The position numbers and the translations under genes are program-made. Source: Bradymonadia bacterium (lineage in GTDB: Bacteria; Myxococcota_A; Bradymonadia; UBA7976; UBA1532). Taken from it: DNA of 19,054 bases. The notes under the pieces are model-generated. The model ran no database searches and was not told the DNA's origin. It was given only the letters and a program-made list of their open reading frames with translations. Shown here piece after piece: positions 1-19,054 of the stretch. Where the stretch lies: positions 1 to 19,054 of the forward strand of contig JBKAGE010000068.1 in assembly GCA_046290225.1 (NCBI GenBank), in the 5' to 3' direction. The number at the start of each line of letters is the position of its first letter. The first letter of the stretch is position 1.

Positions 1-201
1 GGCCCCCATCCGTACGCTGTTCCCCACCGTCACACCTGCAGGCACCACAGACCCGGCGCCAATCACCGTGCTGTTTCCCACACTCCCGTTCACCGTCGCA
101 CCGTCGCCGATGCTCGCGTACGTCCCAATCGATGCACCCGCACCGATGATCAGGTTGCTCCCCAGCGTCGCCGTCTCCGGGATGTTCGCCAGCGGGCTCA
201 C
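1..201 (-). repeat. Hexapeptide repeat region (left-handed beta-helix), continues beyond the window
   Basis: VSPLAN IPETAT LGSNLI IGAGAS IGTYAS IGDGAT VNGS VGNSTV IGAGSV VPAGVT VGNSVR MGA: [LIV]-G-x4 periodicity. Confidence 0.8.
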
Positions 202-936
202 GCAGGCATCACCGTAAGTGTCACCGTTGTCATCCGTCTGATCGCCGTTGGCGATGGTGGGGCAGTTGTCCACGTCACCACAGACACCGTCGCCATCAAC
301 ATCATTGGCGGCGTCGGCGGGGCAGGCGTCACAGACATCACCAAGGCCGTCAGCATCACCATCAGCCTGATCAGCGTTGGCGCCATTGGGGCAGTTGTCC
401 ACATCATCGTTCACCCCGTCACCATCGGCGTCGGGGTTGGCGTTGGCGAAGAACATGACCTCGCGGATCTGACAACGGTGGTTGGCGAACTGAGCCTCGA
501 TGACGAACAGGCGAATCGCCCGCACACCTGCCACAGGGGCAAAGTTCGCCTCGACGGTGCTGGGGCCGTTGTCGACGGTGAACCCGCTCAAGTAGCTGAT
601 GCGGTTGCCCTGGCCATCGAGCATCTCAAGATCGAAGCGCTCGACCCCATCGTCATCAGAGCCAAAGTCGTTGTAGAGCCGAATCGACGACACCTCGACG
701 GCGCTGTTGAAGGTGAACTCGAAGTACTCCACTCCAGGGTCGATGTTCTGGAAGAACGAGCCACCAGAGCTCTCATTGAGATCACCGTTGATGAGGTTGC
801 CCGGCGTACCCGTAATGCCAGGAGCGGTCACTCCATCAGGGGTGGTCCACTGTGCCTGAGCGTTGGCAGCAGTCGAAAGGCCGGCGGTCAGCGCAACAGC
901 ACTGACTGCGGTGAGAATTCGATTCCGAATCCGCAT
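1..936 (-). CDS. Exported multidomain protein, runs off the left edge: Sec signal peptide + discoidin/F5-8C-like beta-sandwich + thrombospondin type-3 repeats + hexapeptide (left-handed beta-helix) repeats
   Basis: Hand-translated; absent from the ORF track because there is no stop in the window. ATG at 936 has GGAG upstream (alternative in-frame ATG at 960), and the frame is open for 312 codons to base 1. It begins MRIRNRILTAVSAVALTAGLSTAANAQAQW (basic n-region, hydrophobic core, AxA), then ...EYFEFTFNSAVEVSSIRLYND...VRAIRLFV...CQIREVMFF (discoidin-like), DADGDGVNDDVDNCPNGANADQADGDADGLGDVCD (TSP3) and LGSNLI-IGAGAS-IGTYAS-IGDGAT (hexapeptide). Confidence 0.88.
   Translation of the reverse strand, partial: MRIRNRILTAVSAVALTAGLSTAANAQAQWTTPDGVTAPGITGTPGNLINGDLNESSGGSFFQNIDPGVEYFEFTFNSAVEVSSIRLYNDFGSDDDGVERFDLEMLDGQGNRISYLSGFTVDNGPSTVEANFAPVAGVRAIRLFVIEAQFANHRCQIREVMFFANANPDADGDGVNDDVDNCPNGANADQADGDADGLGDVCDACPADAANDVDGDGVCGDVDNCPTIANGDQTDDNGDTYGDACVSPLANIPETATLGSNLIIGAGASIGTYASIGDGATVNGSVGNSTVIGAGSVVPAGVTVGNSVRMGA
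202..432 (-). repeat. Thrombospondin type-3 (Ca2+-binding) repeats
   Basis: Two DxDGDGV..DVDNCP..AN.DQ.D...D..GD.C units. An exact 16-nt DNA repeat tggggcagttgtccac occurs at 258-273 and 387-402, 43 codons apart. Confidence 0.9.
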
Positions 937-1063
937 GAGAGACTCCAGGGGTGTCGTCATGCGGTAGAGGATATCGATGATGTGTTACGAATACCACCCC
1001 TGATTACTCAGGCGCACACTTCGCACACAATGGGTCAGAGTATGTGATGTCGGGGCTGGACGA

Positions 1064-7867: not shown

Positions 7868-8260
7868 TCAGCGCCCCTCGTACCCGGCGATCTCGCCGAT
7901 CACCTTTTCCCAGTTGCGACCGTCGAAGGGGCGGATGGTGAAGGTCTCGTAGATCTCGGGGCCAAGGCTGCGCAGATTGACGCTCACCCCGTCAGGATGG
8001 CTGCGAGGTGTATAGAAAGCTTGCACACCACACCGGTCACAGAAAGTGTGCTGCGCCACCCCGGTGTTGAAGGTGTACGTGGTGAGCCGCTCAGCGCCCT
8101 GCAACAACCGGAACCGGTCTTTGGGCACGATGACGTGTACGAAGCCCTTCTGAAAACACAGCGAGCAGTTGCACGCGTCGGCCACTCGCTGGCCCACGTC
8201 GACCTCGAACTTCACCGCGCCGCAATGGCACTGACCTGAGAAAGTCTCGAGTGTGCTCAT
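7868..8260 (-). CDS. GFA / CENP-V family Zn-binding protein
   Basis: GQCHCGAVKF, CNCSLC, HTFCDRCG, YTPRSHPDGVSVN, FDGRNWE. Confidence 0.92.
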   Translation of the reverse strand: MSTLETFSGQCHCGAVKFEVDVGQRVADACNCSLCFQKGFVHVIVPKDRFRLLQGAERLTTYTFNTGVAQHTFCDRCGVQAFYTPRSHPDGVSVNLRSLGPEIYETFTIRPFDGRNWEKVIGEIAGYEGR

Positions 8261-10854
8261 GGCACCAGTCTCCCTCGACGGCCGCTGATCTCCTCGGCGC
8301 GGAACCGCAGGGGCCGATAACGGCCTTCGATCCAGTCCTCGGTGGGGTAGGCGTTGCTGAAGGGCACGTTGAGTGTGGTTTCGGGTACGCCGTCTTCACC
8401 GAAGCCGTGGACCATGCGATACACGGCCCCGTCACTGGCGACACACAGCTCTCGCAGCTCACCGGCGGACCACAGCGGGCACTGGGCCACGTTCACCGTG
8501 GACTCGGCGCCGTCGGTGGCCACCAGGGTGGTCTCGCCGTCGGCCTGTACGAAGGCTGACCGGTGCACGTCACCCCAGGTGGGCTCTCCTCGGGCCGTAT
8601 ACTCCGTGAGGGCGCGATCCATGGCCGTCATCATGTTGCTGGCCATGCCTTCGTCGATGAGGGCGTCGATGGCGAAGTCATAGGTCAGATGCGTGATCTT
8701 GGCGGCGGTGACCGGAGCGGCGTCGTTCACGGTCTCGTAGAGCACGTTGAGATCGTCGAAGAGGGTGATCCGGGCGAGGTGGGCATACCAGATGCGATAC
8801 AACGCCGCAGGCTGTGAGCTGCGGATCATATGTCGATCCCAGGCTGTGAGAGTGGCGACGGCCTCGGCGATGTCTTCTCGAGCAGCCCACATCGACAGCG
8901 GGCTGCCCTCGTCGGCGCCCTGTACCTCGGCCCACGAGGCCTCGAGATGCACCATGAAGGCCTCGGCGAGCAGGCTGTAGGCGTCGTTCTGGAGCACCTC
9001 GGTCTCGGCCCGGGTGATGGGCGTGTCACCGGCTTCGGCAATGCGGGCCTCGAGCACGCTCTTGAGTCGGCCGGCGCGATACCCTGGGGCGTAGAAGCTG
9101 CCGTAGTAGAAATCGTCGTTGAGCGGATCGTTGTCCGCGGTGTGACCCCACGGATCGTTGTTGGCACTCATGATGTAGTCGGGATCAGCCCCGAGGTGAG
9201 GTAGCCGGCCGGCCTCCGGCTCGGTGTCCAGCCACGCCGCTCGACCGTCATCGGGCCAGTCGAGGGGGAACGAGCGCCACAAGGTGCTGATGTCGCTGGC
9301 CTGCATGATGGTGTTGGCTCGGGGGCGGCCCTCCACCGGGCCGCGATCAGGCACTAGGCCGTGCACGCGATAGCGGATGCCCTCGGCGCTGGCAGCGGTC
9401 CAGTTCTGCATGCCGGTGCTGCCGAGGCTGATGGCCGCTTCGAACTCGTCGAGGGTCTCCGCCCGCATCAGCTGCAAGAACACCCGCAAATCGAGGTTGG
9501 GGGCCTGATAGCCGGGCCAACCCACGATGAGCTCACCATCGGCGAAGACCGACTGGGGCAATGGCAGCATGGCCTCGGGCAGCAACACCCCAACCCCCTC
9601 GACCCACCGCACCTCGAGGGTGCGATCTTCGAGGGCGCCGTCTTCACCCTTCACCTGATAGATCTGCGTCTCCACCAGGACCGGCAGCTGCTGATCGCCG
9701 AAGGTGGCCTGCAGACCGTCATCCGTGTCGGCGACGGCGACGTCCCAGAGATCCATCATGTCGGCGAAGTGGGTGGTGGCCCCCCAAGCGAGGGCGCCGT
9801 TGTGGCCCACCTGAATGCCAGGCACTCCGAAGAAGCCCACCCCGATGACATCGAAACTACCCCCAGCATCGGCGGAGTTCAGGTGCGCCATGTACATGCG
9901 GTTCGGATCGAGCAGCCCGGCATGGGAATCATTGGCGAGGAGCGGACGACCGTTGTCAGTGAACCGGCCATTCACCGCCCAGAGGTTGCTCCCCTCGCCC
10001 ACACCGAGATCTCGCCGCCAGCGCAGCGCGAAGTCGAGCATCACCCGAGCCATCTCGGGATCGACAGGCGCCCCGATCTCGAAGGGGGCGGGGCCCATCT
10101 TTCGCTTGCCGTCGGTGACGCCGCCCACCGCGTCCATGATGTAGGCTTCTGCACCCGGGGCGAACACCGGCACTTCTGCGGCCACGTCGGGGGCGATGCG
10201 GCCAATGACCGAGTTGAGCAGGTCGAATTCGAGGGTGCTGCTGAAGCCGAACTGAATGCGCACGCCGATGGTGAGCAGGTCAGCGGCGGTGAAGGACTCG
10301 GGTGAGTGCCCATACTCCTCGAAGCCCTCAGGCAGGGTCGCCGTACCACCATTCACGCTGTCGACATGACGATTGATGCCTGCGGCGAAGGCCTCAAGCA
10401 GTTCATACTCCTCGGGAAACTGCTCGGCGAGGGCCTCAGCAGAGGCGGCGCCGAGCTCCGGGAACCGGAGAGCCCGGGACTGAATGTCACCGCCCTCGGC
10501 AGACTCACCGAAGATCTCCGCGAGACGGCCACTGGCCCGGCGCTTGTTCACGTCGAGTACCCACAGATGATCTCGAGCCTGCTGGAATCCGGCGGCGTAC
10601 ATGAGATCCAGATCGTTCTGAGCGTAGATGTGGGGCACGTTGTCTTCGTCGTAGACGAACTCCACTGGCGCCTGCAGCTGATAGCCCTCGGGGGCATCGA
10701 CATCAGCATCCGCCTCGACGCCAGCGTCGGCCATCACCGTGGCGTCGGGGATGATGATGGCGGCATCGGGAGGCTGCACCCGGCTGCCGCTGTCCTGGTC
10801 GCACCCGCTGAGGGCGGCGCCGGTGAGCATCAAGGGGATCAACGCGCGGTTCAT
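8257..10854 (-). CDS. Penicillin acylase / AHL acylase family Ntn-hydrolase, predicted lipoprotein
   Basis: Lipobox LSGC after a hydrophobic signal; D..NVPHIYAQND.DL.YAAGF..ARD; SGRLAEIFG; beta-subunit nucleophile G|SNLWAV (Ser codon 9988-9990); LLANDSH; GHNGALAWGAT; SANND; PGYRA.R. The stop overlaps the GFA start (ATGA). Confidence 0.9.
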   Translation of the reverse strand: MNRALIPLMLTGAALSGCDQDSGSRVQPPDAAIIIPDATVMADAGVEADADVDAPEGYQLQAPVEFVYDEDNVPHIYAQNDLDLMYAAGFQQARDHLWVLDVNKRRASGRLAEIFGESAEGGDIQSRALRFPELGAASAEALAEQFPEEYELLEAFAAGINRHVDSVNGGTATLPEGFEEYGHSPESFTAADLLTIGVRIQFGFSSTLEFDLLNSVIGRIAPDVAAEVPVFAPGAEAYIMDAVGGVTDGKRKMGPAPFEIGAPVDPEMARVMLDFALRWRRDLGVGEGSNLWAVNGRFTDNGRPLLANDSHAGLLDPNRMYMAHLNSADAGGSFDVIGVGFFGVPGIQVGHNGALAWGATTHFADMMDLWDVAVADTDDGLQATFGDQQLPVLVETQIYQVKGEDGALEDRTLEVRWVEGVGVLLPEAMLPLPQSVFADGELIVGWPGYQAPNLDLRVFLQLMRAETLDEFEAAISLGSTGMQNWTAASAEGIRYRVHGLVPDRGPVEGRPRANTIMQASDISTLWRSFPLDWPDDGRAAWLDTEPEAGRLPHLGADPDYIMSANNDPWGHTADNDPLNDDFYYGSFYAPGYRAGRLKSVLEARIAEAGDTPITRAETEVLQNDAYSLLAEAFMVHLEASWAEVQGADEGSPLSMWAAREDIAEAVATLTAWDRHMIRSSQPAALYRIWYAHLARITLFDDLNVLYETVNDAAPVTAAKITHLTYDFAIDALIDEGMASNMMTAMDRALTEYTARGEPTWGDVHRSAFVQADGETTLVATDGAESTVNVAQCPLWSAGELRELCVASDGAVYRMVHGFGEDGVPETTLNVPFSNAYPTEDWIEGRYRPLRFRAEEISGRRGRLVP

Positions 10855-10953
10855 GGAAAACCCGTTCGTGAATGTCGTGGTCGGGTAGAGCTATCAGCAC
10901 ATTATCGACCGGGTCAATTGCGCTCGGGGGGGCTTTCTGCCATGTAGGCGCCT

Positions 10954-11454
10954 ATGGAGCCGCTGATCCCCGATGTACTCGATCTGGCCCCCCTGCCCGC
11001 CCTCGAGGGGGGCGATCGCCTCACCGCTCTGGTGGTGGGCCCTGGGGCTCTCTTCGTCGACTGGCATGTCGATCCCCGCAGTCTCGTCCGCCTCAAAGGC
11101 AGCCTCGAGGCCGATGCCGACGGGGCCCACATGGCCCTGAGGGTGCACTTGATCGACCCCGAGCAAACGGGCGTGCCCCGCGCCCGTCAGGTGCTCGATC
11201 AACGGGTCGATGCCCTGAGCGGTCACCAGCACCTGACCTTCACGGCCCACGATCGGCCCGTGCTCGCGGTGGTGTCGGTGGGCCTCGACGACGGCCACGC
11301 CTTCGGACACCTCGTCCGCTCGGCGCCGGTGATGCTGCCTCCGTGTATCTCCCAGGAGCCCCACGAGACGACACCCACCAAGGCAAGCACGGAAGAAAGC
11401 ACGGAAGAGATCATCGACTGGGCGTCAATGGCGCTGGTGCAGGAGATCCCATGA
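10954..11454 (+). CDS. DUF4912-like protein
   Basis: DRLTALVVGPGALFVDWHV...MALRVH resembles the DUF4912 pattern (DR.V....DP..L.AYW...LVLR.Y). It is translationally coupled (ATGA) to the GH57 gene, a usual neighbour of DUF4912. Confidence 0.68.
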   Translation: MEPLIPDVLDLAPLPALEGGDRLTALVVGPGALFVDWHVDPRSLVRLKGSLEADADGAHMALRVHLIDPEQTGVPRARQVLDQRVDALSGHQHLTFTAHDRPVLAVVSVGLDDGHAFGHLVRSAPVMLPPCISQEPHETTPTKASTEESTEEIIDWASMALVQEIP

Positions 11455-13049
11455 GCGCCACCACGGTGTTGATCACCCATCATCATCTGCCAGCCATCTC
11501 TCGTGACCACGTGGGTCAGCGCCCCGAGGGCTGCTGGGTGCTGCAGTATGTGCTCCACACCGCCCTGCCGCTGCTGCAGGTCACTGAAGGGCTCGTGGCC
11601 GACGGGGTGCCCTTCACCTTGGGCGCAGCCTTCACGCCCACCCTGCTCTGGCAGCTCTCAGATCCGAACCTGCCCCAGGCGTTTCGCCCCTGGCTCGCGG
11701 TGCAAAAGGCTGCCCACGAAGCCATACAGGCAGCGTGTGTCGACGCCAGCCTCCAGCCAGCGCTCGATGCCTGGAGCAGGCACCTCGAACGTCTCGGTGC
11801 CCTCTTCGAGAAGCTCGACGGTGACATCCTCGGCGCCTTTGTCGATCTGCACCGTCGTGGCCACCTGGAATTGCTCGTGGTGCCGGCGAGCCATGGCATC
11901 TTGCCGCTGACGGGTCTCGTCCCCCTCCAATTGCAGGCAGGTCTCACGGCCATCGAGCGCACCTTCGGTAGGCGACCCAAAGGCCTCTGGGTGCCCGAGG
12001 GGGCCATCTCACCTCAGCTCACAGTGGAGGCAGCCGCTCTGGGCTTCACCCATGCTCTCGTAGAGCCTGAGGCCCTCGGGGGCGCCCCGACCCTGCGCGA
12101 CACAGCAGGCCAGAGCACCCTGCTGTACATCAGCCGTGATGCAGGCTTTGCTCAAAGCCCAAAGGCCACTGACGCCGCCTACCCTGGCGCCTACGGCCTG
12201 CAAGTTGACGATCCGGCCACCAGGGCACTCCCCAATGGCGTGGCCATGGGCTATGCCCGCCTGCACACAGGTGATCGGCTGGGCGCCCCACTCTGGGCAC
12301 GGGGCGACGGCAGCTTCATCAAACAGCCATATGATCCCGAAGCCGCAGTGGCAGCTGCCCAGGCACACGCAGACAGCTGGGCCCGACACCAGTCAGAACA
12401 ACACCGTGTCGGCGCCATAGACGCCACCGCCATCACCGACCGCTGGCTCGAAGGCCCTGCCTTCCTCGATCATCTCTATCGGCATGGTGGAGTGGCGTGG
12501 GGCACCCTCGAAGCAGTAGCCGAGCAGAGCACCCCCTTGGCTGATCGCAGCCCTCAGCTCTACAGCCGAGGACCTCAGGGCGATTTGCAGTGGTGGTGTG
12601 ATACGGCCCACCACTGGCTGACCCCTCGAGTACAGGGCCTCGCCCGACGCCTGTCGGCGCTCACTGGGACCATCAAGAGCAACCAGGGCAAAGCCGCCCT
12701 CGCCCAAGGGGCTCGCGCCTGGCTGCTCGCCGCCGCCAGCGACTGGCCTGCCCTGATGAGCGCCGAGCGATGGGTCGACGTCGCCCTCTCCAATGTGCGG
12801 GCTCATCTGCACGCCTGTGCGCGTATTTGCGAGATGCTCGAGGGCAGTGACGGCCTGTTCGAAGAGGTCGATCGCACATGGCTCACGATGTACAGCGCCC
12901 AATGGTCGCTGTGGCCCGACCTCGATCTCGAAGTCATCACACCACAGACGCCGGCCTCTCTGGAGCCAGCACCTCAGGCGCCCCCTGGCCCCATGGCCCA
13001 CGCCGAGGACGACCATCCTCTACGTCTGAAGCCCGGTGAGTTCGTCTGA
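11451..13049 (+). CDS. GH57 family 1,4-alpha-glucan branching enzyme-like protein (DUF1957 C-terminus), divergent
   Basis: Start is ATG 11451 with an AGGAG RBS. Motifs: HHHLP (HxHLP), FTPTLLWQLSDP, SHGILPL, FGRRPKGLWVPEG (nucleophile Glu, 11997-11999), YDPEAA, AIDA...WLEGPAFL (acid/base Asp, 12420-12422), LLAAASDW. Confidence 0.85.
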   Translation: MSATTVLITHHHLPAISRDHVGQRPEGCWVLQYVLHTALPLLQVTEGLVADGVPFTLGAAFTPTLLWQLSDPNLPQAFRPWLAVQKAAHEAIQAACVDASLQPALDAWSRHLERLGALFEKLDGDILGAFVDLHRRGHLELLVVPASHGILPLTGLVPLQLQAGLTAIERTFGRRPKGLWVPEGAISPQLTVEAAALGFTHALVEPEALGGAPTLRDTAGQSTLLYISRDAGFAQSPKATDAAYPGAYGLQVDDPATRALPNGVAMGYARLHTGDRLGAPLWARGDGSFIKQPYDPEAAVAAAQAHADSWARHQSEQHRVGAIDATAITDRWLEGPAFLDHLYRHGGVAWGTLEAVAEQSTPLADRSPQLYSRGPQGDLQWWCDTAHHWLTPRVQGLARRLSALTGTIKSNQGKAALAQGARAWLLAAASDWPALMSAERWVDVALSNVRAHLHACARICEMLEGSDGLFEEVDRTWLTMYSAQWSLWPDLDLEVITPQTPASLEPAPQAPPGPMAHAEDDHPLRLKPGEFV

Positions 13050-13055
13050 GCCTGC

Positions 13056-15788
13056 TCAGTTCAGCGGATCACGCGAGCCCATGAGCCGAAAGTCCCGCCA
13101 CCCCTCGATCTCAGCCCTGACCACAGCTCGATAAGCACTGGCCGGCTGCTCGAGTCCACCTGCATCGATGAAGGCCCGCAAGAACGCCAATGCCACCTGC
13201 TCGTCCACAGTGCCCTCGGCGATGAGCAGGGTGCGCGTTCCCACAGCGAAGAAGGCGTCGACGAGCCCTTGAGACTCCATCGACCCTCCACGACGCTCAC
13301 CGCTGTGACATGCCATCACCAGCGCCAGCCGGGGCCCTGCCTCAAGAGAAAGCACATCGGCGAGCTCGAAGAGATCCCCACCCGCGAAGCGCAAGCAGTT
13401 CCCTTGAGCGCCACATGCAGCCTCACCATGACCCACGAAGACGAAGACCTCAGCCGCCGGCAGGGCGTCGAGCAGACGATCGCGGCTCACCTCTTCACCC
13501 ATGAGCAGCAACCCGTCAGACAAGTGTGAGTCAGCCAGCTGCGGCAGCACCTCACCCACATGCCCCAGGTTCTCTTCAGGATCGCCCACGATGACAGGTG
13601 GGTTGTGCTCGTCGCCCACACGTTTCGAGAGAAGGTGCGCGGGGCTCTGTAGATAGCTCAAGGTCACTCGAGCCGCCCATGGGGATCCATCCGGATCCAG
13701 CTCGCGGTGCACAACCTCAGCAGCGAGCGCGCCGCCCGTCGCCACATAGACATGCTCTGCCTCTGCAAAGATCTCGGGCCACTCGGACCACATCGACTCA
13801 GGCGTGGGCAACAGCGCATGATCGACCTCACCCTCGACGATCAGGAAGGTGTGCCAACTGCCCCTGAAGGCGAAAAGCATCACCAGGACCTCACCCTCAT
13901 CAAGGGCCGCGGAGATGCCTGGCAGGGTCAGCTTCTTTGGACTGGCTCTCAGATTGTGACCATCGAGCCAGAACAATAGATCTTCAAAGGCGATGTCCCG
14001 TGCTCGACGGGCTTGAGTGATTTGCACGTCTGTGCTCGGCTCAAGCCCCTGCCCCTGCCGCAGAGCCTCACCATAGACCTCACGGGCACGCTCGAGCGCG
14101 CCCACACGCTGTTGATACTCCGACAAAAACTCTGAGGGCAGATCACGTTGTGGATCGTTGAGAGGCACTGAGCTCATGAGCGTCGACTGAGCGCTGGCCA
14201 GCACAGTCGCCGCGCGGTCGATGTCGCCATGCTCCGTGAGTAGATCGAGATAATCGCCCACCAGATCTCGGTGAGCCGACATGAAACCGCTTCGATCCAC
14301 GCCAGGTGCCGTCCAACGACTGCGCTGTTCGATCTCTTTCATCGCCTCGTCGAACGCCTGCCACCCCTGGCCGTCGAGACCCAGAGCCACGAGAGCCTCT
14401 CCGAGCGCCGCCCGCGCCTGCCACCCGTAGACCGCCGCCTCTTCACTGAGGCGAGCGAGCCGGTCCGCATGGGCAAGATCGACGAGGGCACTGGCATACC
14501 GTCCCTCGGCGATCTTGAGCTTGCCCCATAGCAAATACAGCTCGGAATCATCCACCTCGGGGCACGCCTCAAGCGTGTGCCGCGCCGCATCAAGATCGCC
14601 GAGCCACAAGTAAAGCGACACGAGAACCATGCGCGCTTCTGAGACCCCTCGCTCATCCCCCATGGTGGCGTACTGCCTCGCTGAAGACTCCAGCAATGCC
14701 AACGCCTCCACCACGTCATCCGTGACCTCCCAATGGATCGCGTGCCGTACCAGCATCCACCCGCACATGGTCTTGAACCCTGCCTGAATCGTGGGCCAGC
14801 GTATGGCGCCTGCAGGCGGCGACGCGTCGCCTTGCATATAGGGGCCCATCACCCGGTCGCAGAGGTCCCGAGCAGCAGCAAAATCCCCGATGTATATCAG
14901 CGACTTGAGGACGCCTGACTGGGTGTAGATCCACAGAGCTTCGTGGTTGAGATGGTTCAAGCGCCGTGCGGCCGACTGATGCAAGCGCAACGCCCGCCGC
15001 AGGTACCCTTGCCGGGCAGCGACCCCTCCGGCCATGAGCTCTACAACGGCCCAGCCTGCTTCATCTGCCTTGGGTAGAAGGCGCCCTGCCCATCTGAACA
15101 ACGCCTCCGACTGATCGTATCGATTGGACTCCGAGCTCGCGTGCATGGCGGCGTTCAGCCGCGCGACGGCGAGATGTGTTGATCCTTCAGCCAGAGCAGC
15201 CCTGGCACCGAGCACCCACTCCTCTACAGCACGCTTCGCCTGCTGTTGATACCAGAACACCCGCCCACGCAAACGCCAGCCCCACTGACGCACCCCCAGC
15301 CCATGGGTGCTCGATGTGCTCAGCGCTTTTGCCTGAGCATACGCTTCGTCATAAGCCTTGGATGCGATCAGCGCGTCGATGGCCTTCACCTCGGGCAACG
15401 CTCTCGGATCAGGCCACCACTGCACACGCCAGCTCTGACTGCGGGCTTCACAGCGCACCACCAACTCGCTGGGGCCCAGCTGAGCGGGGGGCTCGAGCAC
15501 GCCCAGAATCAGCCAGCCATCGACCTGGACATCGCTGATTTTCAACACTTCTGGCACTGCACCACTGGCCTTCGACGTCACCGCACAGTGACGCAGCTCT
15601 CCGACCTGCTCGATCCGCCACCTGATGATGGGCAGTGATCGCCCGCTGAAGGCCCATTGATGAGGTGCTGGCCGTGTCGTGACATACCCGTGCAGCTGTG
15701 CAGACAAGGTGGATGGAGACTCACACCCCCACGCCAAAAGCATCAACGTTACCCACACAACACAGTGCTGCGGTGCAACATTCTTCAT
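13056..15788 (-). CDS. TPR-CHAT domain caspase-like (clan CD) protease 1, probable lipoprotein
   Basis: N-terminus MKNVAPQHCVVWVTLMLLAWG|C, then a beta-rich segment, a long TPR-like helical region, and a C-terminal CHAT domain: IVGDPEENL, FVFVGHG (His 13428-13430), LVMACHSG (Cys 13308-13310), GLVDAFFAVG, W..FRLMG. ATG 15788 is preferred over TTG 15794. Confidence 0.88.
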   Translation of the reverse strand: MKNVAPQHCVVWVTLMLLAWGCESPSTLSAQLHGYVTTRPAPHQWAFSGRSLPIIRWRIEQVGELRHCAVTSKASGAVPEVLKISDVQVDGWLILGVLEPPAQLGPSELVVRCEARSQSWRVQWWPDPRALPEVKAIDALIASKAYDEAYAQAKALSTSSTHGLGVRQWGWRLRGRVFWYQQQAKRAVEEWVLGARAALAEGSTHLAVARLNAAMHASSESNRYDQSEALFRWAGRLLPKADEAGWAVVELMAGGVAARQGYLRRALRLHQSAARRLNHLNHEALWIYTQSGVLKSLIYIGDFAAARDLCDRVMGPYMQGDASPPAGAIRWPTIQAGFKTMCGWMLVRHAIHWEVTDDVVEALALLESSARQYATMGDERGVSEARMVLVSLYLWLGDLDAARHTLEACPEVDDSELYLLWGKLKIAEGRYASALVDLAHADRLARLSEEAAVYGWQARAALGEALVALGLDGQGWQAFDEAMKEIEQRSRWTAPGVDRSGFMSAHRDLVGDYLDLLTEHGDIDRAATVLASAQSTLMSSVPLNDPQRDLPSEFLSEYQQRVGALERAREVYGEALRQGQGLEPSTDVQITQARRARDIAFEDLLFWLDGHNLRASPKKLTLPGISAALDEGEVLVMLFAFRGSWHTFLIVEGEVDHALLPTPESMWSEWPEIFAEAEHVYVATGGALAAEVVHRELDPDGSPWAARVTLSYLQSPAHLLSKRVGDEHNPPVIVGDPEENLGHVGEVLPQLADSHLSDGLLLMGEEVSRDRLLDALPAAEVFVFVGHGEAACGAQGNCLRFAGGDLFELADVLSLEAGPRLALVMACHSGERRGGSMESQGLVDAFFAVGTRTLLIAEGTVDEQVALAFLRAFIDAGGLEQPASAYRAVVRAEIEGWRDFRLMGSRDPLN

Positions 15789-15840
15789 GGCCAACCCTGG
15801 ACAATCACTCGATTTAGGGTCATGGTGTGTCCCAGTTGGG

Positions 15841-15868: not shown

Positions 15869-16444
15869 ATGAGCTCTAAAAACTTCGAAGACCAACAGCT
15901 GATCCATGACTGCCTCACCGGCCGTGAGCACTTCGTAGAACTCTATGCCCGCATCAACCCGATGATCATCAGCCAGCTGCGCCGGCTGTGCATCGGGGCG
16001 ACCCCGCTGACCGTCGACGACAGCGCACAAGCCCTGTGGGTGCGCTTGCTCTTGAACGACGGCAGCAACCTCAAAAAATATGACCCGAAACGGGGTGCCT
16101 TGACCACGTTCATGAGCACCACCACGTTCAATTTCTTCCGTGAACTCTCCAAAAAAAACCAAGACCCCATCGTCGATCCGAGTGCCCTGGACGACAAACC
16201 AAGTACGGACATGCCTGTTGATGAGCGACTCGCCTTGAGCAAGGAACTTCAGCGGCTACGCGAGCATCTAGAGAAAACATTGTCGGCCCAACAGCGCGCA
16301 GTGATGGCCATGCACTTTTTCGATGGGCGCTCAGCCTCGGACATCGCTGCGCTGCTCGGAAAAAAGACACAGATAATCTACAACGATATCTACAAGATAC
16401 GAGAGGCGGCCCGCGCTTTCGTCAAAAAAGATGAGGCGCCGTAG
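15869..16444 (+). CDS. ECF-type RNA polymerase sigma-70 factor
   Basis: 191 aa with sigma2 (EDQQLIHDCL...FVELY...VDDSAQALWVRLL...YDPKRGALTTF) and sigma4 (LSAQQRAVMAMHFFDGRSASDIAALLG...IYKIRE). ATG 15869 is preferred over GTG 15827. Confidence 0.9.
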   Translation: MSSKNFEDQQLIHDCLTGREHFVELYARINPMIISQLRRLCIGATPLTVDDSAQALWVRLLLNDGSNLKKYDPKRGALTTFMSTTTFNFFRELSKKNQDPIVDPSALDDKPSTDMPVDERLALSKELQRLREHLEKTLSAQQRAVMAMHFFDGRSASDIAALLGKKTQIIYNDIYKIREAARAFVKKDEAP

Positions 16445-16594: not shown

Positions 16595-17407
16595 ATGAAA
16601 CACGATCACACAGAACACGACGACATCGACACCTACATCAAGGCGCTCGACCCGGGAGCGACAGGCCAGGAAGAGCGCCTCGATGACGCCACCTTACTGG
16701 CCTGGCGAGCCGGCCAGTTGTCAGACTCAGAACGTGAGACGGTCATGTTGCGCCTGGCCGAGTGCCGAGCGTCTCGTGAGCGGCTCTACGCGCTGGCCCA
16801 ACAAGAGACAGACTCATCTGAGCCAGCCACGGTGGAGCCTGCATCAAACGTAGTGCCTCTACCTGCCTCCAACAGTGCTTCCCCCAACCGACGCACCTTC
16901 ATCCAAATCAGTACGGGTCTCGCAGCAGCGGCGGCATTGACTGTGGGTGTGCTCACCTACGGCGGTGGCCCTGTGGGGCAAGATGCGCCCGATTTGGAGT
17001 TTGGCAGGGCTCAGGGTGTGCGACAGACCCAGCTCGGCGACGGGCCCAACGTCGCTGGCCGAGGCACTCCACAGGCACCTCTTGAGTTCGCACCTCACGG
17101 TAACTTCAAAATAAGGCTGATGGGTCACACCACCAGCGACACTGTGGGTGTCTTCGAGGAGCGAGATGGCATACTGCACCGCCTCGAAGCTGCGACCCAC
17201 ACTCTCCCCTCCCACACTGGCGGCCCCGACGATCTCTTCATCAAGGTGAAAATTGCTCAACTCAGCGACGGAGATCAGGCCAAGCACCTGCTCATCGCCG
17301 TGGGCGACACTGCGGGTGACGTCGACGCGCTGAAGGGTGCAAAGCGCACTGTACTGGACGACGACTGGGCCCCAGGGCGCTGGTCTTCCTTCTGGCTGAG
17401 TCGCTGA
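16595..17407 (+). CDS. Putative membrane-anchored anti-sigma factor (degenerate zf-HC2/ZAS domain + TM + extracytoplasmic domain)
   Basis: Directly downstream of the ECF gene. LDDATLLAWRAGQLSDSERETVMLRLAECRASRERL matches the anti-sigma pattern L..Y..G.L...E...VE.HL..C..C. It continues with a NVVPL linker, the hydrophobic helix ISTGLAAAAALTVGVLTY and a beta-rich C-terminus. ATG 16595 follows GAGG. Confidence 0.8.
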   Translation: MKHDHTEHDDIDTYIKALDPGATGQEERLDDATLLAWRAGQLSDSERETVMLRLAECRASRERLYALAQQETDSSEPATVEPASNVVPLPASNSASPNRRTFIQISTGLAAAAALTVGVLTYGGGPVGQDAPDLEFGRAQGVRQTQLGDGPNVAGRGTPQAPLEFAPHGNFKIRLMGHTTSDTVGVFEERDGILHRLEAATHTLPSHTGGPDDLFIKVKIAQLSDGDQAKHLLIAVGDTAGDVDALKGAKRTVLDDDWAPGRWSSFWLSR

Positions 17408-17422
17408 GCAAGGATCAGCAAC

Positions 17423-18937
17423 TCAACGCAGGCCCACGACGCGGAAGCGGCCCCAATCGAGGGTACTGCCCTCCTCCACAAGTTGGGAAACCACAGTCTT
17501 GTAGGCCTTCGCGGGGTTTTGCGCCCCACCTGCAGCGAGGAACCTCTTCAGAAACTCCAGGGCTTCAGCTTCGGGCACGGCACCTTCAGCCACGAGCACA
17601 GTCTCCGTGCCCACCGCGAGGAAGGCTTCCGTGAGGCCTATGGACTCAGAGATCGCCAAACGTGCCGACTCACTGCTATGACATGCAATGATGAGGACAA
17701 CTCGAGGGCCCACACCCATTTCCAGAATGTCCATTGCGCCAAACATGGCGCCTTCAGCCAGCCCCAAACAGTTTCCTAGTTGCTCGCACTCACGATATCC
17801 ATGGCCTACGAAGATGACAGCATCGGAGCGAGACAGCTCTGAAATCAAGGCGGCACGTGTCACCTCATCTCCCATTTTCAGTTGAACAGCTGGGCCAAGG
17901 GTCTCTTCAATCAGATTGGGGAGCCCGGTGCTCATCAGGCCCAAATCGAGGTTCGGGTCACCAAAGACTGAAACGACCTCCCCTTGCTCCGACATACTTC
18001 CGAGGATTCGGTCTACGCTGGGTAAATAGCTGAGTGTCAGCTTACTGGCCCAAGGAGTCCCATGTTCATCGAGTGTCCTATGCAAGGTGTTGGCACCTGG
18101 AAACCCACCTGTAGACACATACAAGTGAGCCGACTGTCCAATGATCTGAGGCCATTCATCAAAAGCGTTACTTGGCTGCTTCAGCACCCTGAAGTACAGC
18201 CTCCCGCGACTCAGCAAAAAAGCATACCACTCACCTCGTGAAGGGTAGAGCACCAAGAGAGACTGCTCATCTGTCAGGGAGTTGGACAACTGTTGCTGAT
18301 CTACCGCCCCTATCGAAATCGAACTCGAACCTTCCTCCAGCCACTCGACAAGCGACTCAAAAGCAATGGTTCGCTCAACTCTTGCAGAAAACACACACTG
18401 TTCAAAAGCACTATCAGACACACCCGCGCACTGTTTTACGGCCCGATCGAACCGCTCTGTGGCCTGCTCAAAGTCTCTAACACACTCTAAATACTCATTC
18501 TTCCTATCACCTTCAAGACCACTCATATCAACATTAGAACCAATACTTCTAACCAATAGCCCCTGACCCCTAATTGCAACTAAAAATGCTTTATCAAAAT
18601 CATGAATCTTAACAAGGGACTCCATATAATCTCTTATTAAAGTACGCCTTGAGCCTAAAAACCGAGCTCTTCCAAGGCCAAACGGCATCATCATACTGTC
18701 ACTTATTAACTCATCAAATGCCCTCTCATATATTTCAATAGCATCCCCTAAATGACCTAATGTGCTATAAATATGACCTTGCAAAACCGAAATACGCCAA
18801 GCCCATGTAAGCTGATACTCTTGAGCCATATGAGATTGTTTTGCTTGATTCAATAGACTTACTGCATTATCTACATTCCCCTCAGCAAGAGAAATAGCAC
18901 TTCGACTAAAAAAATATGACACATGCTCGGTGAGCAC
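17423..18937 (-). CDS. TPR-CHAT domain caspase-like protease 2, paralog of 13056..15788; probably the 3' part of a longer frameshifted gene
   Basis: Collinear with CHAT1: HLYVSTGG/HVYVATGG, GTPWASKLTLSYL/GSPWAARVTLSYL, FGDPNLDLG/VGDPEENLG, IFVGHG (His 17801-17803), IIACHSS (Cys 17681-17683), GLTEAFLAVGT, W.RFRVVG. The GTG at 18937 has no clear RBS, and there is an in-frame TAA upstream at 18989-18991. Confidence 0.85.
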   Translation of the reverse strand: MLTEHVSYFFSRSAISLAEGNVDNAVSLLNQAKQSHMAQEYQLTWAWRISVLQGHIYSTLGHLGDAIEIYERAFDELISDSMMMPFGLGRARFLGSRRTLIRDYMESLVKIHDFDKAFLVAIRGQGLLVRSIGSNVDMSGLEGDRKNEYLECVRDFEQATERFDRAVKQCAGVSDSAFEQCVFSARVERTIAFESLVEWLEEGSSSISIGAVDQQQLSNSLTDEQSLLVLYPSRGEWYAFLLSRGRLYFRVLKQPSNAFDEWPQIIGQSAHLYVSTGGFPGANTLHRTLDEHGTPWASKLTLSYLPSVDRILGSMSEQGEVVSVFGDPNLDLGLMSTGLPNLIEETLGPAVQLKMGDEVTRAALISELSRSDAVIFVGHGYRECEQLGNCLGLAEGAMFGAMDILEMGVGPRVVLIIACHSSESARLAISESIGLTEAFLAVGTETVLVAEGAVPEAEALEFLKRFLAAGGAQNPAKAYKTVVSQLVEEGSTLDWGRFRVVGLR

Positions 18938-18939
18938 AA

Positions 18940-19053
18940 CTACACTATCAAGATGTTTGAGGTGGACCCCAAATCTTGGACATGTAGGTTAAATAAGACC
19001 GACATGTCGGATAGGGGTTCAAGATGGGTCGCAGGAAGCGACGAAATTTCACT
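18940..19053 (-). pseudogene. Probable upstream, out-of-frame segment of CHAT protease 2 (extends beyond the window)
   Basis: The frame starting at 19053 reads SEISSLPATHLEPLSDMSVLFNLHVQDLGSTSNILIV*. VLFNLHVQDLG aligns with CHAT1 VSLYLWLGDLD, just before the point where the main CHAT2 frame picks up (LKHLDS vs RHTLEA). Only 37 codons are visible. Confidence 0.5.
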
Positions 19054-19054
19054 C

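What the first reader, a model, noticed from the sequence alone, without database searches (positions are those of the whole stretch)
17423..18937. Steep GC gradient and coding-strand cytosine depletion within one CHAT gene
Hand counts: about 65% GC at 17521-17640 (protease end), about 58% in sampled lines at 17701 and 17881, about 49% at 18061-18180, and about 38% over 18481-18900 (TPR half). In 18481-18900 the coding strand has about 47 C vs 113 G in 420 nt (2 C vs 20 G in 18481-18540), with many T-ending codons. Yet this part is stop-free and aligns without gaps to GC-rich CHAT1 (FGLGRARFLGSRRTLIRDYMESL vs PGVDRSGFMSAHRDLVGDYLDLL). Inference: either the sensor half was swapped in from a low-GC donor, or the TPR region undergoes localised C-to-T-biased mutation while the catalytic domain is conserved, as expected for a diversifying receptor.
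Basis: partly seen in the sequence, partly recalled or inferred. Interest (0 to 1): 0.7.

Follow-up and report, generated by a model that had tools for sequence, protein, structure and literature searches.

The report
AT-rich trough in transposon-split protease gene
A bacterial sensor-protease gene, recently cut in two by a jumping gene, has a roughly 1-kb middle section that is unusually poor in G+C and especially in C; this is real, but most likely reflects ordinary mutation pressure or segment exchange in a fast-changing sensor region rather than a new mutation-targeting machine.

Summary
All hand counts are exact. But the ORF is only the 3' half of a ~934-codon TPR-CHAT gene: an IS3-type element starts at 18958, the 5' half lies on contig C42, and removing a 3-bp target duplication gives one stop-free frame. 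The 'gradient' is one flank of a central trough (GC3 51% / 26% / 57%), not a sensor-versus-protease split. It is the genome's most AT-rich 420-nt window and its C deficit exceeds all AT-rich comparators. Against targeted C-to-T hypermutation: G is lost too, no sequence context, and the skew sign follows replication strand in 11 of 11 CHAT paralogs. Against a swap from a distant donor: all five gene regions stay in one subfamily, and no low-GC carrier was found. Step and smooth models fit equally. Chimera and post-insertion decay are unlikely. Best reading: a variable sensor cassette left to ordinary leading-strand mutation pressure (0.45); rival, a swapped block (0.32). No reads or close orthologs were available, so the mutation spectrum is untested.

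The parts
17423..18957 (-). 3' half of a TPR-CHAT protease gene ('CHAT2'); frame is open up to the insertion boundary, so the GTG at 18937 is not the native start
   Evidence: Pfam CHAT 47.9 bits over cut-off 24 plus weak TPR hits; model matches DdvA and Csx29 folds
18476..18957 (-). In-window part of the AT-rich, C-depleted trough (TPR helices and start of the coiled-coil); the trough continues on G000:C42:671-98
   Evidence: changepoint at rejoined codon 584/585; C3 0-7%; edge width unresolved
17450..18070 (-). CHAT (caspase-like) domain with intact His379 (17801-17803) and Cys419 (17681-17683); GC3 ~60%
   Evidence: Pfam PF12770 residues 290-496; H379, C419 invariant in alignment A1; GC3
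18955..18957 (-). One copy of the 3-bp target-site duplication (the other ends the 5' half on C42)
   Evidence: dropping one copy restores the frame
18958..19054 (+). Left end of an IS3-type insertion sequence: 25-bp terminal inverted repeat and start of orfA at 19024; inserted opposite to the gene; contig ends inside it
   Evidence: same end on C11 (99% over 95 nt); right end on C42, C52, C80; elements with this end consensus are 1.3-1.45 kb with 3-bp duplications in 9 of 16 and encode IS3 transposase in 5 of 8 ORFs tested over cut-off
16595..17407 (+). Candidate membrane anti-sigma factor (N-terminal ZAS-like part, one hydrophobic helix, C-terminal domain)
   Evidence: look-alike clusters include zf-HC2 on 64% of members of one cluster; homologs within three genes of 34 of 51 family hits; no Pfam/NCBIfam family over cut-off
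15869..16444 (+). ECF-type sigma factor
   Evidence: TIGR02937 45.5 bits over cut-off 42.9; Sigma70_r4_2
13056..15794 (-). Intact paralog CHAT1, 912 aa, uniform GC3 ~68-70%, same strand, also G3>C3; internal control
   Evidence: 28% identity to the rejoined gene over 942 columns

Best explanation
The gene is a lipoprotein-like TPR-CHAT protease of a sigma / anti-sigma / TPR-CHAT signalling module (inferred role: the TPR part senses a ligand, the CHAT domain cuts the anti-sigma and frees the sigma). SHOWN: it was recently split by an IS3-type element that landed in an already AT-rich segment; the segment became AT-rich while the gene was still under selection; its C/G asymmetry points the way this genome's leading strand does. 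INFERRED: the middle ~350 codons are the most variable part of the protein, a cassette too divergent among alleles to take part in the homologous recombination (GC-biased conversion or selection) that keeps the rest of this genome GC-rich. Left alone for a long time, its synonymous and then its amino-acid composition relaxed towards the ordinary mutational equilibrium: AT-rich, with extra C-to-T on the coding strand because that strand is both the leading-oriented strand and the non-transcribed strand. Conversion tracts reaching in from the conserved ends give the graded flanks.
For: Smooth V in C/(C+T) over 16 bins of 60 codons, 0.45 down to 0.06 and up to 0.70; smooth trough fits as well as steps (BIC 1183.1 vs 1181.3). 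Asymmetry sign splits the 11 CHAT genes perfectly by replichore (5 leading negative, 6 lagging positive, p=0.004), and low-GC3 segments genome-wide do the same (11 leading vs 18 lagging, p=0.001), as expected for mutations made in place. All five regional trees keep the gene with CHAT1/P0006/P0008; the trough is the least conserved region (14-25% identity vs 37-48% in CHAT). No stop in the trough despite 19 CAA/CAG/CGA codons. CHAT genes are enriched for low-GC3 segments (5 of 11 vs 14 of 692, p=3e-6), as are other variable modules: a PglX-like methyltransferase middle, an Rhs C-terminus. Mechanisms in print: deamination on lagging-template and non-transcribed strands (PMC10710837, passages); higher GC3 in recombining genes and AT-biased mutation (PMC4450053, passages).
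Against: No allele or ortholog data: recombination pattern and mutation spectrum are not measured. The neighbour CHAT1, same strand and family, has no trough, nor do 36 homologs in relatives (TPR lower than CHAT in 12 of 36, p=0.89); in this genome TPR<CHAT holds in only 7 of 11 (p=0.15). The asymmetry (log-odds -1.58) is about 3 SD beyond other low-GC3 leading segments (-0.22 +/- 0.45), and leading-strand asymmetry does not grow as GC3 falls, so replication bias explains the sign but not the size. Paralogs C37 and C76 show clean two-step profiles, more like block exchange. Replichore calls are codon-based (73% per-gene agreement; C42 total -128, C68 -42 of which CHAT1 itself -28).
Confidence: 0.45

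Rival explanations
1. Block swap or nested mosaic: the middle of the gene (or the whole gene, with its ends later replaced) came by recombination from a same-subfamily gene in a low-GC, strongly strand-skewed genome, in the same orientation, and keeps the donor's composition.
For: Three-step model has the best BIC by a small margin (51/26/57% GC3). Trough codon usage looks like an AT-rich genome: TTA 13 of 41 Leu, AGR 13 of 24 Arg, ATA 7 of 21 Ile against 0 of 113, 8 of 68, 2 of 25 in CHAT1. Paralogs C37, C76, C38 have step-like low-GC3 blocks; at C37 the block runs across the end of the upstream gene. Family and order include genomes of 41-58% GC.
Against: No donor: matches only in the own family among 113 genomes of the class (14 of 113; at most 8 candidates scored per genome), and the 41-54% GC relatives sampled had no match. 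Their genes do not reach this C deficit (0 of 135 windows). C-loss and G-loss boundaries differ (375-645 vs 290-550; bootstrap p=0.035), awkward for one block, though the PglX-like gene shows the same. No change of subfamily in the trough (supports 0.0-0.96, weak in places).
Confidence: 0.32
2. A localised, strand-asymmetric cytosine-deamination zone (targeted deaminase, R-loop, or bidirectional internal transcription) mutagenises the sensor segment and diversifies it.
For: C deficit beyond all comparators; 3' side of the insertion has C:T 10:81 but G:A 32:36; C loss peaks 3' of G loss by about 70-100 codons, the geometry expected if each strand is deaminated downstream of a central point; smooth-fit centre at codon 426-445, next to the insertion at 425.
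Against: No 5' or 3' context preference; the 5' side is symmetric (13:48, 16:37); amino-acid changes are mostly multi-step, not single C-to-T; the offset is post hoc and runs the other way in 8 of 11 other troughs; uracil glycosylases present (4 over cut-off); no match to two deaminase-toxin families (controls also silent, so weak); promoter-like sites on C42:1-2000 at chance level (2 vs 1.8); absent from 36 homologs.
Confidence: 0.12
3. The insertion sequence caused the trough, or the gene decayed after being broken.
For: The insertion sits near the centre of the trough.
Against: Perfect 3-bp duplication, 97-98-nt right ends 100% identical on three contigs, no stop or frameshift in either half and 19 stop-prone codons intact where about two thirds of synonymous C is gone. 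Three other flanks of the element start at 50-53% GC and show no trough.
Confidence: 0.03
4. Assembly chimera near 18470.
For: Metagenome-type assembly; no reads could be laid.
Against: The trough is shared by two separately assembled contigs that join in frame; the protein is collinear with P0006 and P0008 across the point; no repeat or second copy there.
Confidence: 0.03

Closest known systems
DdvA-DdvS of Myxococcus xanthus (PMC11506125; passages read)
   Same: TPR-CHAT protease fold with His-Cys dyad (top two Foldseek hits 8rw5, 8rot, E 9e-12 and 1e-10), tied to an ECF sigma and a membrane anti-sigma
   Different: DdvA fuses anti-sigma, membrane helix and TPR-CHAT; here they are separate genes, with two TPR-CHAT genes flanking the pair; no CRISPR or CBASS genes in the window
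ECF54-type contexts (PMC8999054; passage read)
   Same: ECF sigma beside CHAT-domain proteins (and subtilases), proposed proteolytic control
   Different: described there as acting without an anti-sigma; here an anti-sigma-like gene is beside 34 of 51 family hits
Craspase Csx29 / Csx30 / CASP-sigma (PMC10028731; search listing and start of abstract only; pathway details recalled)
   Same: TPR-CHAT fold; protease-anti-sigma-sigma logic
   Different: no Cas7-11 in the window; probable secretion signal; activator unknown
AT-rich variable modules inside genes (methyltransferase target-recognition regions, Rhs C-termini; general knowledge, recalled)
   Same: low-GC3 block between conserved GC-rich flanks; both kinds occur in this genome
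   Different: here the flanks are themselves depressed (51%, 57% vs genome 78%), edges may be graded, and C loss is far stronger (C3 8% vs 18% in both)
Diversity-generating retroelements (recalled; PMC8195603 passages)
   Different: DGRs mutate A and need a template copy; here A rises and no second copy exists in the assembly

Membership tests
TPR-CHAT (clan CD, PF12770) protease | CHAT domain over the curated cut-off | tested here: met
   47.9 bits vs 24
TPR-CHAT (clan CD, PF12770) protease | His-Cys dyad | tested here: met
   H379 and C419 invariant in A1
TPR-CHAT (clan CD, PF12770) protease | N-terminal TPR-like helical repeats | tested here: met
   helical hairpins in model, residues 6-126; Pfam TPR hits below cut-off; fold matches DdvA/Csx29
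TPR-CHAT (clan CD, PF12770) protease | protease activity and substrate | not testable with these tools
   needs biochemistry
IS3 family insertion sequence | terminal inverted repeats starting TG, multiple copies | tested here: met
   two left and three right ends at contig ends
IS3 family insertion sequence | 3-4 bp target duplication | tested here: met
   3 bp, frame restored
IS3 family insertion sequence | orfA/orfB DDE transposase | tested here: inconclusive
   body not assembled (no HTH_Tnp_1 over cut-off); elements elsewhere with the same end consensus carry NF033516 in 5 of 8 ORFs tested
DdvA-type anti-sigma | anti-sigma domain, membrane helix and TPR-CHAT in one chain | tested here: not met
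   separate convergent genes
ECF54 system | no anti-sigma; ECF54 group assignment | tested here: inconclusive
   anti-sigma-like neighbour present; no ECF-group models available
Craspase (type III-E) | Cas7-11 and CRISPR array linked | tested here: not met
   none among window ORFs or among called genes on C42:1-16 kb by inspection; whole genome not searched
Diversity-generating retroelement target | template repeat copy | tested here: not met
   no second copy of 17401-18956 in the assembly
Diversity-generating retroelement target | adenine-specific mutagenesis | tested here: not met
   A3 rises from 15-17% to 26% in the trough
Deaminase (APOBEC/DddA-like) hypermutation | sequence-context preference of C loss | tested here: not met
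   C:T by 5' base 6:44, 4:17, 7:23, 6:46; all 3' contexts fall similarly against the flanks; saturation limits power
Deaminase (APOBEC/DddA-like) hypermutation | excess of recent C-to-T variants | not testable with these tools
   no runs listed; no close orthologs

The most novel reading that the evidence does not exclude
A ~1-kb zone inside the sensor part of a signalling protease is a self-sustaining cytosine-deamination hotspot: each strand loses C downstream of a central point (for example from bidirectional internal transcription or a recruited single-strand deaminase), diversifying the TPR surface while selection keeps the frame open, and the same exposed DNA attracted the IS3 insertion. 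That would be a bacterial receptor-diversifying mutator distinct from DGRs.
Probability: 0.1. Interest if true: 0.85.

Novelty: new variant of a known kind. Interest (0 to 1): 0.35.

Why it matters
As best explained, it is a clear single-gene example of a variable module drifting away from its genome's base composition, with an intact same-strand paralog 1.6 kb away as control; it bears on whether AT-rich patches in GC-rich bacteria are imported or made in place, and warns that low GC alone is not proof of transfer. It also corrects an annotation: the 504-aa protein on record is a fragment. If the localised-deamination reading held, it would be a new way for bacteria to diversify receptors.

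Tried and rejected
Reads: no sequencing run was listed for 17000-19054, so coverage and variants were not examined. Close orthologs: no other genome in the genus; family best hits 31% or less; locus scans found nothing; protein searches gave only the window's own protein and distant hits; nearest relatives P0006 (38%) and P0008 (31%) have no DNA access; dN/dS was therefore not computed. Sharp versus graded edge: likelihood flat for edge widths 1-90 codons. Family-wide TPR<CHAT rule: rejected in relatives (12 of 36; 36 full-length genes from 40 loci chosen among the hits for long frames) and not significant here (7 of 11). General offset of C loss 3' of G loss: 3 of 11 usable troughs, 4 of 15 dropped for failed fits. 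IS-made trough: three other flanks negative. DGR: rejected; two reverse transcriptases exist on C79, not linked. 5mC-motif deamination: two C5-methyltransferase genes exist but C loss is not motif-bound. Repeats and hairpins in the gene: only short two-copy matches. IS ends against plasmids: no useful match. Earlier scan findings: none. Literature: no paper held 4 of 5 terms on intragenic AT-rich segments in GC-rich bacteria; searches listed nothing on this family or on such a trough (listings and abstract starts only); the library lacks most subscription papers, and supplements (such as table S7 of PMC11506125) were not read.

Full report
1. Observation. The window is the whole of contig C68 of an 8.58-Mb, 83-contig assembly. 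The stretch is the most AT-rich of 142,500 overlapping 420-nt windows. With my own gene calls (6,015 genes, amino-acid log-odds caller), it holds the lowest 100-codon GC3 of 2,509 genes of 400 codons or more (0.23; next 0.29), while its within-gene range (0.42) ranks only 15th.

2. The ORF is half a gene. At 18958 a sequence begins that recurs at the start of C11 (99% over 95 nt); a related inverted repeat ends C42, C52 and C80. C42 carries, on its minus strand, a 430-codon frame that runs into that repeat and resembles the N-terminal half of CHAT1. The C42 flank ends with, and the C68 flank starts with, the same three bases; dropping one copy gives a 2,823-nt frame with only the terminal stop, aligning to CHAT1 over 942 columns at 28%. 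Of the other two right-end flanks neither complements the C68 flank. Elements in other genomes with this end consensus are mostly 1.3-1.45 kb, have 3-bp duplications in 9 of 16 complete cases (37 of 80 loci were long enough to examine) and encode IS3 transposases (5 of 8 ORFs over cut-off, 1 below, 2 with no hit). The element's body is not in the assembly, so IS3 is an inference from ends and duplication.

3. Shape. From the probable GTG start (C42:1370) the gene has 934 codons, the insertion at codon 425. A Gaussian trough centred on codon 432 fits as well (BIC 1183.1 vs 1181.3), and edge width cannot be resolved. C/(C+T) at third positions runs 0.45, 0.47, 0.35, 0.34, 0.29, 0.25, 0.17, 0.06, 0.17, 0.15, 0.26, 0.35, 0.59, 0.50, 0.55, 0.70 in 60-codon bins; G/(G+A) also dips, to 0.26, about 100 codons earlier (separate boundaries favoured, bootstrap p=0.035 of 400). 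So both C and G are lost, C more. Even the flanks are below the genome's GC3 of 78% and CHAT1's uniform 68%.

4. Is the C deficit ordinary? Its sign is. A codon-based replichore call puts C42 and C68 minus strands as leading (73% per-gene agreement). Among the genome's 11 CHAT genes, the 5 on the leading strand under-use C relative to G and the 6 on the lagging strand over-use it (p=0.004); the 29 other genes with a 150-codon window of GC3 <=0.45 split the same way (-0.22 vs +0.47, p=0.001). Its size is not. CHAT2's window scores -1.58, about 3 SD beyond the 11 leading ones; 48 C are seen where 85 +/- 5.5 are expected; none of 135 windows of 30-43% GC from relatives or 48 from unrelated taxa reaches skew 0.39 or log-odds -1.5 (haphazard sample, no strongly skewed genome in it, fixed windows against a chosen extreme). 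The excess is on the 3' side of the insertion (C:T 10:81, G:A 32:36) and not the 5' side (13:48, 16:37), with no context preference.

5. Timing. No stop lies in the trough although it holds 19 CAA/CAG/CGA codons and about two thirds of synonymous C is gone; by inference the shift happened under selection, before the insertion. Amino acids moved too (FYMINK 0.24-0.26 vs 0.11-0.16 in CHAT1), mostly by multi-step changes, which points to a long process. Three other flanks of the element begin at 50-53% GC and show no trough: it prefers AT-richer sites but does not make them. A chimera is unlikely because two contigs share the trough and join in frame, and the protein is collinear with P0006 and P0008 across the point; reads were not available.

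6. Relatives. In trees of 41 proteins for five regions, CHAT2 always falls with CHAT1, P0006 and P0008 (clade support 0.95, 0.0, 0.83, 0.95, 1.0); its tip is the longest of the four in the two trough regions but also in the CHAT domain. The family was found only in the own family of the class (14 of 113 genomes). Thirty-six homologs from 10 relatives show no such trough. In this genome CHAT genes are enriched for low-GC3 segments (5 of 11 vs 14 of 692 length-matched): C37, C76 and C38 have step-like blocks, C73 is uniformly low. Fifteen other genes have supported internal troughs; the deepest is the post-catalytic part of a PglX-like methyltransferase, and another the C-terminus of an Rhs protein, the kinds of module known to vary between strains (recalled).

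7. The module. The C-half has a CHAT domain with its dyad and folds like DdvA and Csx29 (pLDDT 70). Between CHAT1 and CHAT2 lie an ECF sigma and an anti-sigma candidate. Of 51 family hits (including both halves of CHAT2 and three TPR-only hits), 26 have a sigma within three genes against 4.3% of random genes, and 34 have an anti-sigma-like gene. N-termini look like lipoprotein signals by eye and by a loose pattern. By analogy with DdvA-DdvS (PMC11506125, passages), ECF54 contexts (PMC8999054, passage) and caspase systems with variable sensors (PMC8195603, passages), I infer signal-triggered cleavage of the anti-sigma; nothing here shows it. The host is probably a Myxococcota bacterium (inferred look-alikes only). 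In this strain CHAT2 is probably inactive: the 3' half lacks the signal peptide and most TPRs.

8. Explanation. Best (0.45): a hypervariable sensor cassette shielded from the recombination-linked force that raises GC3 (PMC4450053, passages) and so relaxed under ordinary AT-ward mutation, with C-to-T favoured on a strand that is both leading-oriented and non-transcribed (PMC10710837, passages). It explains sign, gradation, subfamily constancy and lack of a donor; it does not explain why CHAT1 is spared or the size of the C deficit. Block exchange from a skewed low-GC donor (0.32) explains codon usage and the paralogs' steps but has no donor. Localised deamination (0.12) explains the size and the offset but lacks context, enzyme and generality. 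Insertion-caused decay and chimera get 0.03 each.

9. Verdict. A real and extreme compositional feature, misframed by a contig end. Kind known (AT-rich variable module; TPR-CHAT/sigma/anti-sigma signalling; IS3 disruption), degree unusual. Not found in print in the searches named under Tried and rejected. Interest 0.35; the bold reading has probability 0.1.

Noticed in passing
G000:C79:175953-183349: Two convergent reverse-transcriptase genes (540 and 453 codons by my calls), each preceded by a 560-640-codon gene, GC3 typical of the genome; a paired RT arrangement, type not determined.
   Followed up: no
G000:C57:21144-24899 (L084): PglX-like Eco57I/DUF7008 methyltransferase with GC3 88% / 37% / 68% / 91%: the genome's largest within-gene range, with leading-strand T>A in the low block.
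   Followed up: partly
G000:C37:183921-189277: Low-GC3 block (0.38-0.44) spans the end of an 873-codon gene (subtilase-like motifs by eye, untested) and the first 335 codons of the TPR-CHAT gene behind it, like a cassette between two conserved anchors.
   Followed up: partly
G000:C80:144796-146968 and G000:C52:74943-75427: Other copies of the same element end sit just upstream of a C5 DNA methyltransferase gene and at a 157-codon ORF; their left-end partners are not matched in the assembly.
   Followed up: no
P0006 (953 aa): Nearest homolog also has AT-codon-rich amino acids in the N-terminal TPR region (FYMINK 0.24) but not elsewhere, so its DNA may carry a similar trough.
   Followed up: partly
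window 1-984 (minus): Repeat-rich secreted-type protein cut by the contig start; by eye it has the aspartate-rich and hexapeptide repeats of G000:C49:140-3199, which has TSP_3 and Hexapep hits and a low-GC3 N-terminal 600 codons.
   Followed up: no
G000:C4:79242-79703: Short AT-rich ORF (GC 0.42) with strong G>C skew, inserted between housekeeping genes.
   Followed up: no
genome-wide: GC3 of this genome (0.78) is below that of most large-genome relatives (~0.9 around their CHAT loci), and the family spans about 51-73% GC in the stretches sampled.
   Followed up: partly
window 8257-13049: An 865-aa protein with an Ntn-hydrolase-like motif (penicillin acylase type) and a 568-codon glycoside-hydrolase-57-like gene next to CHAT1; both labels by eye and recalled, not tested.
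   Followed up: no
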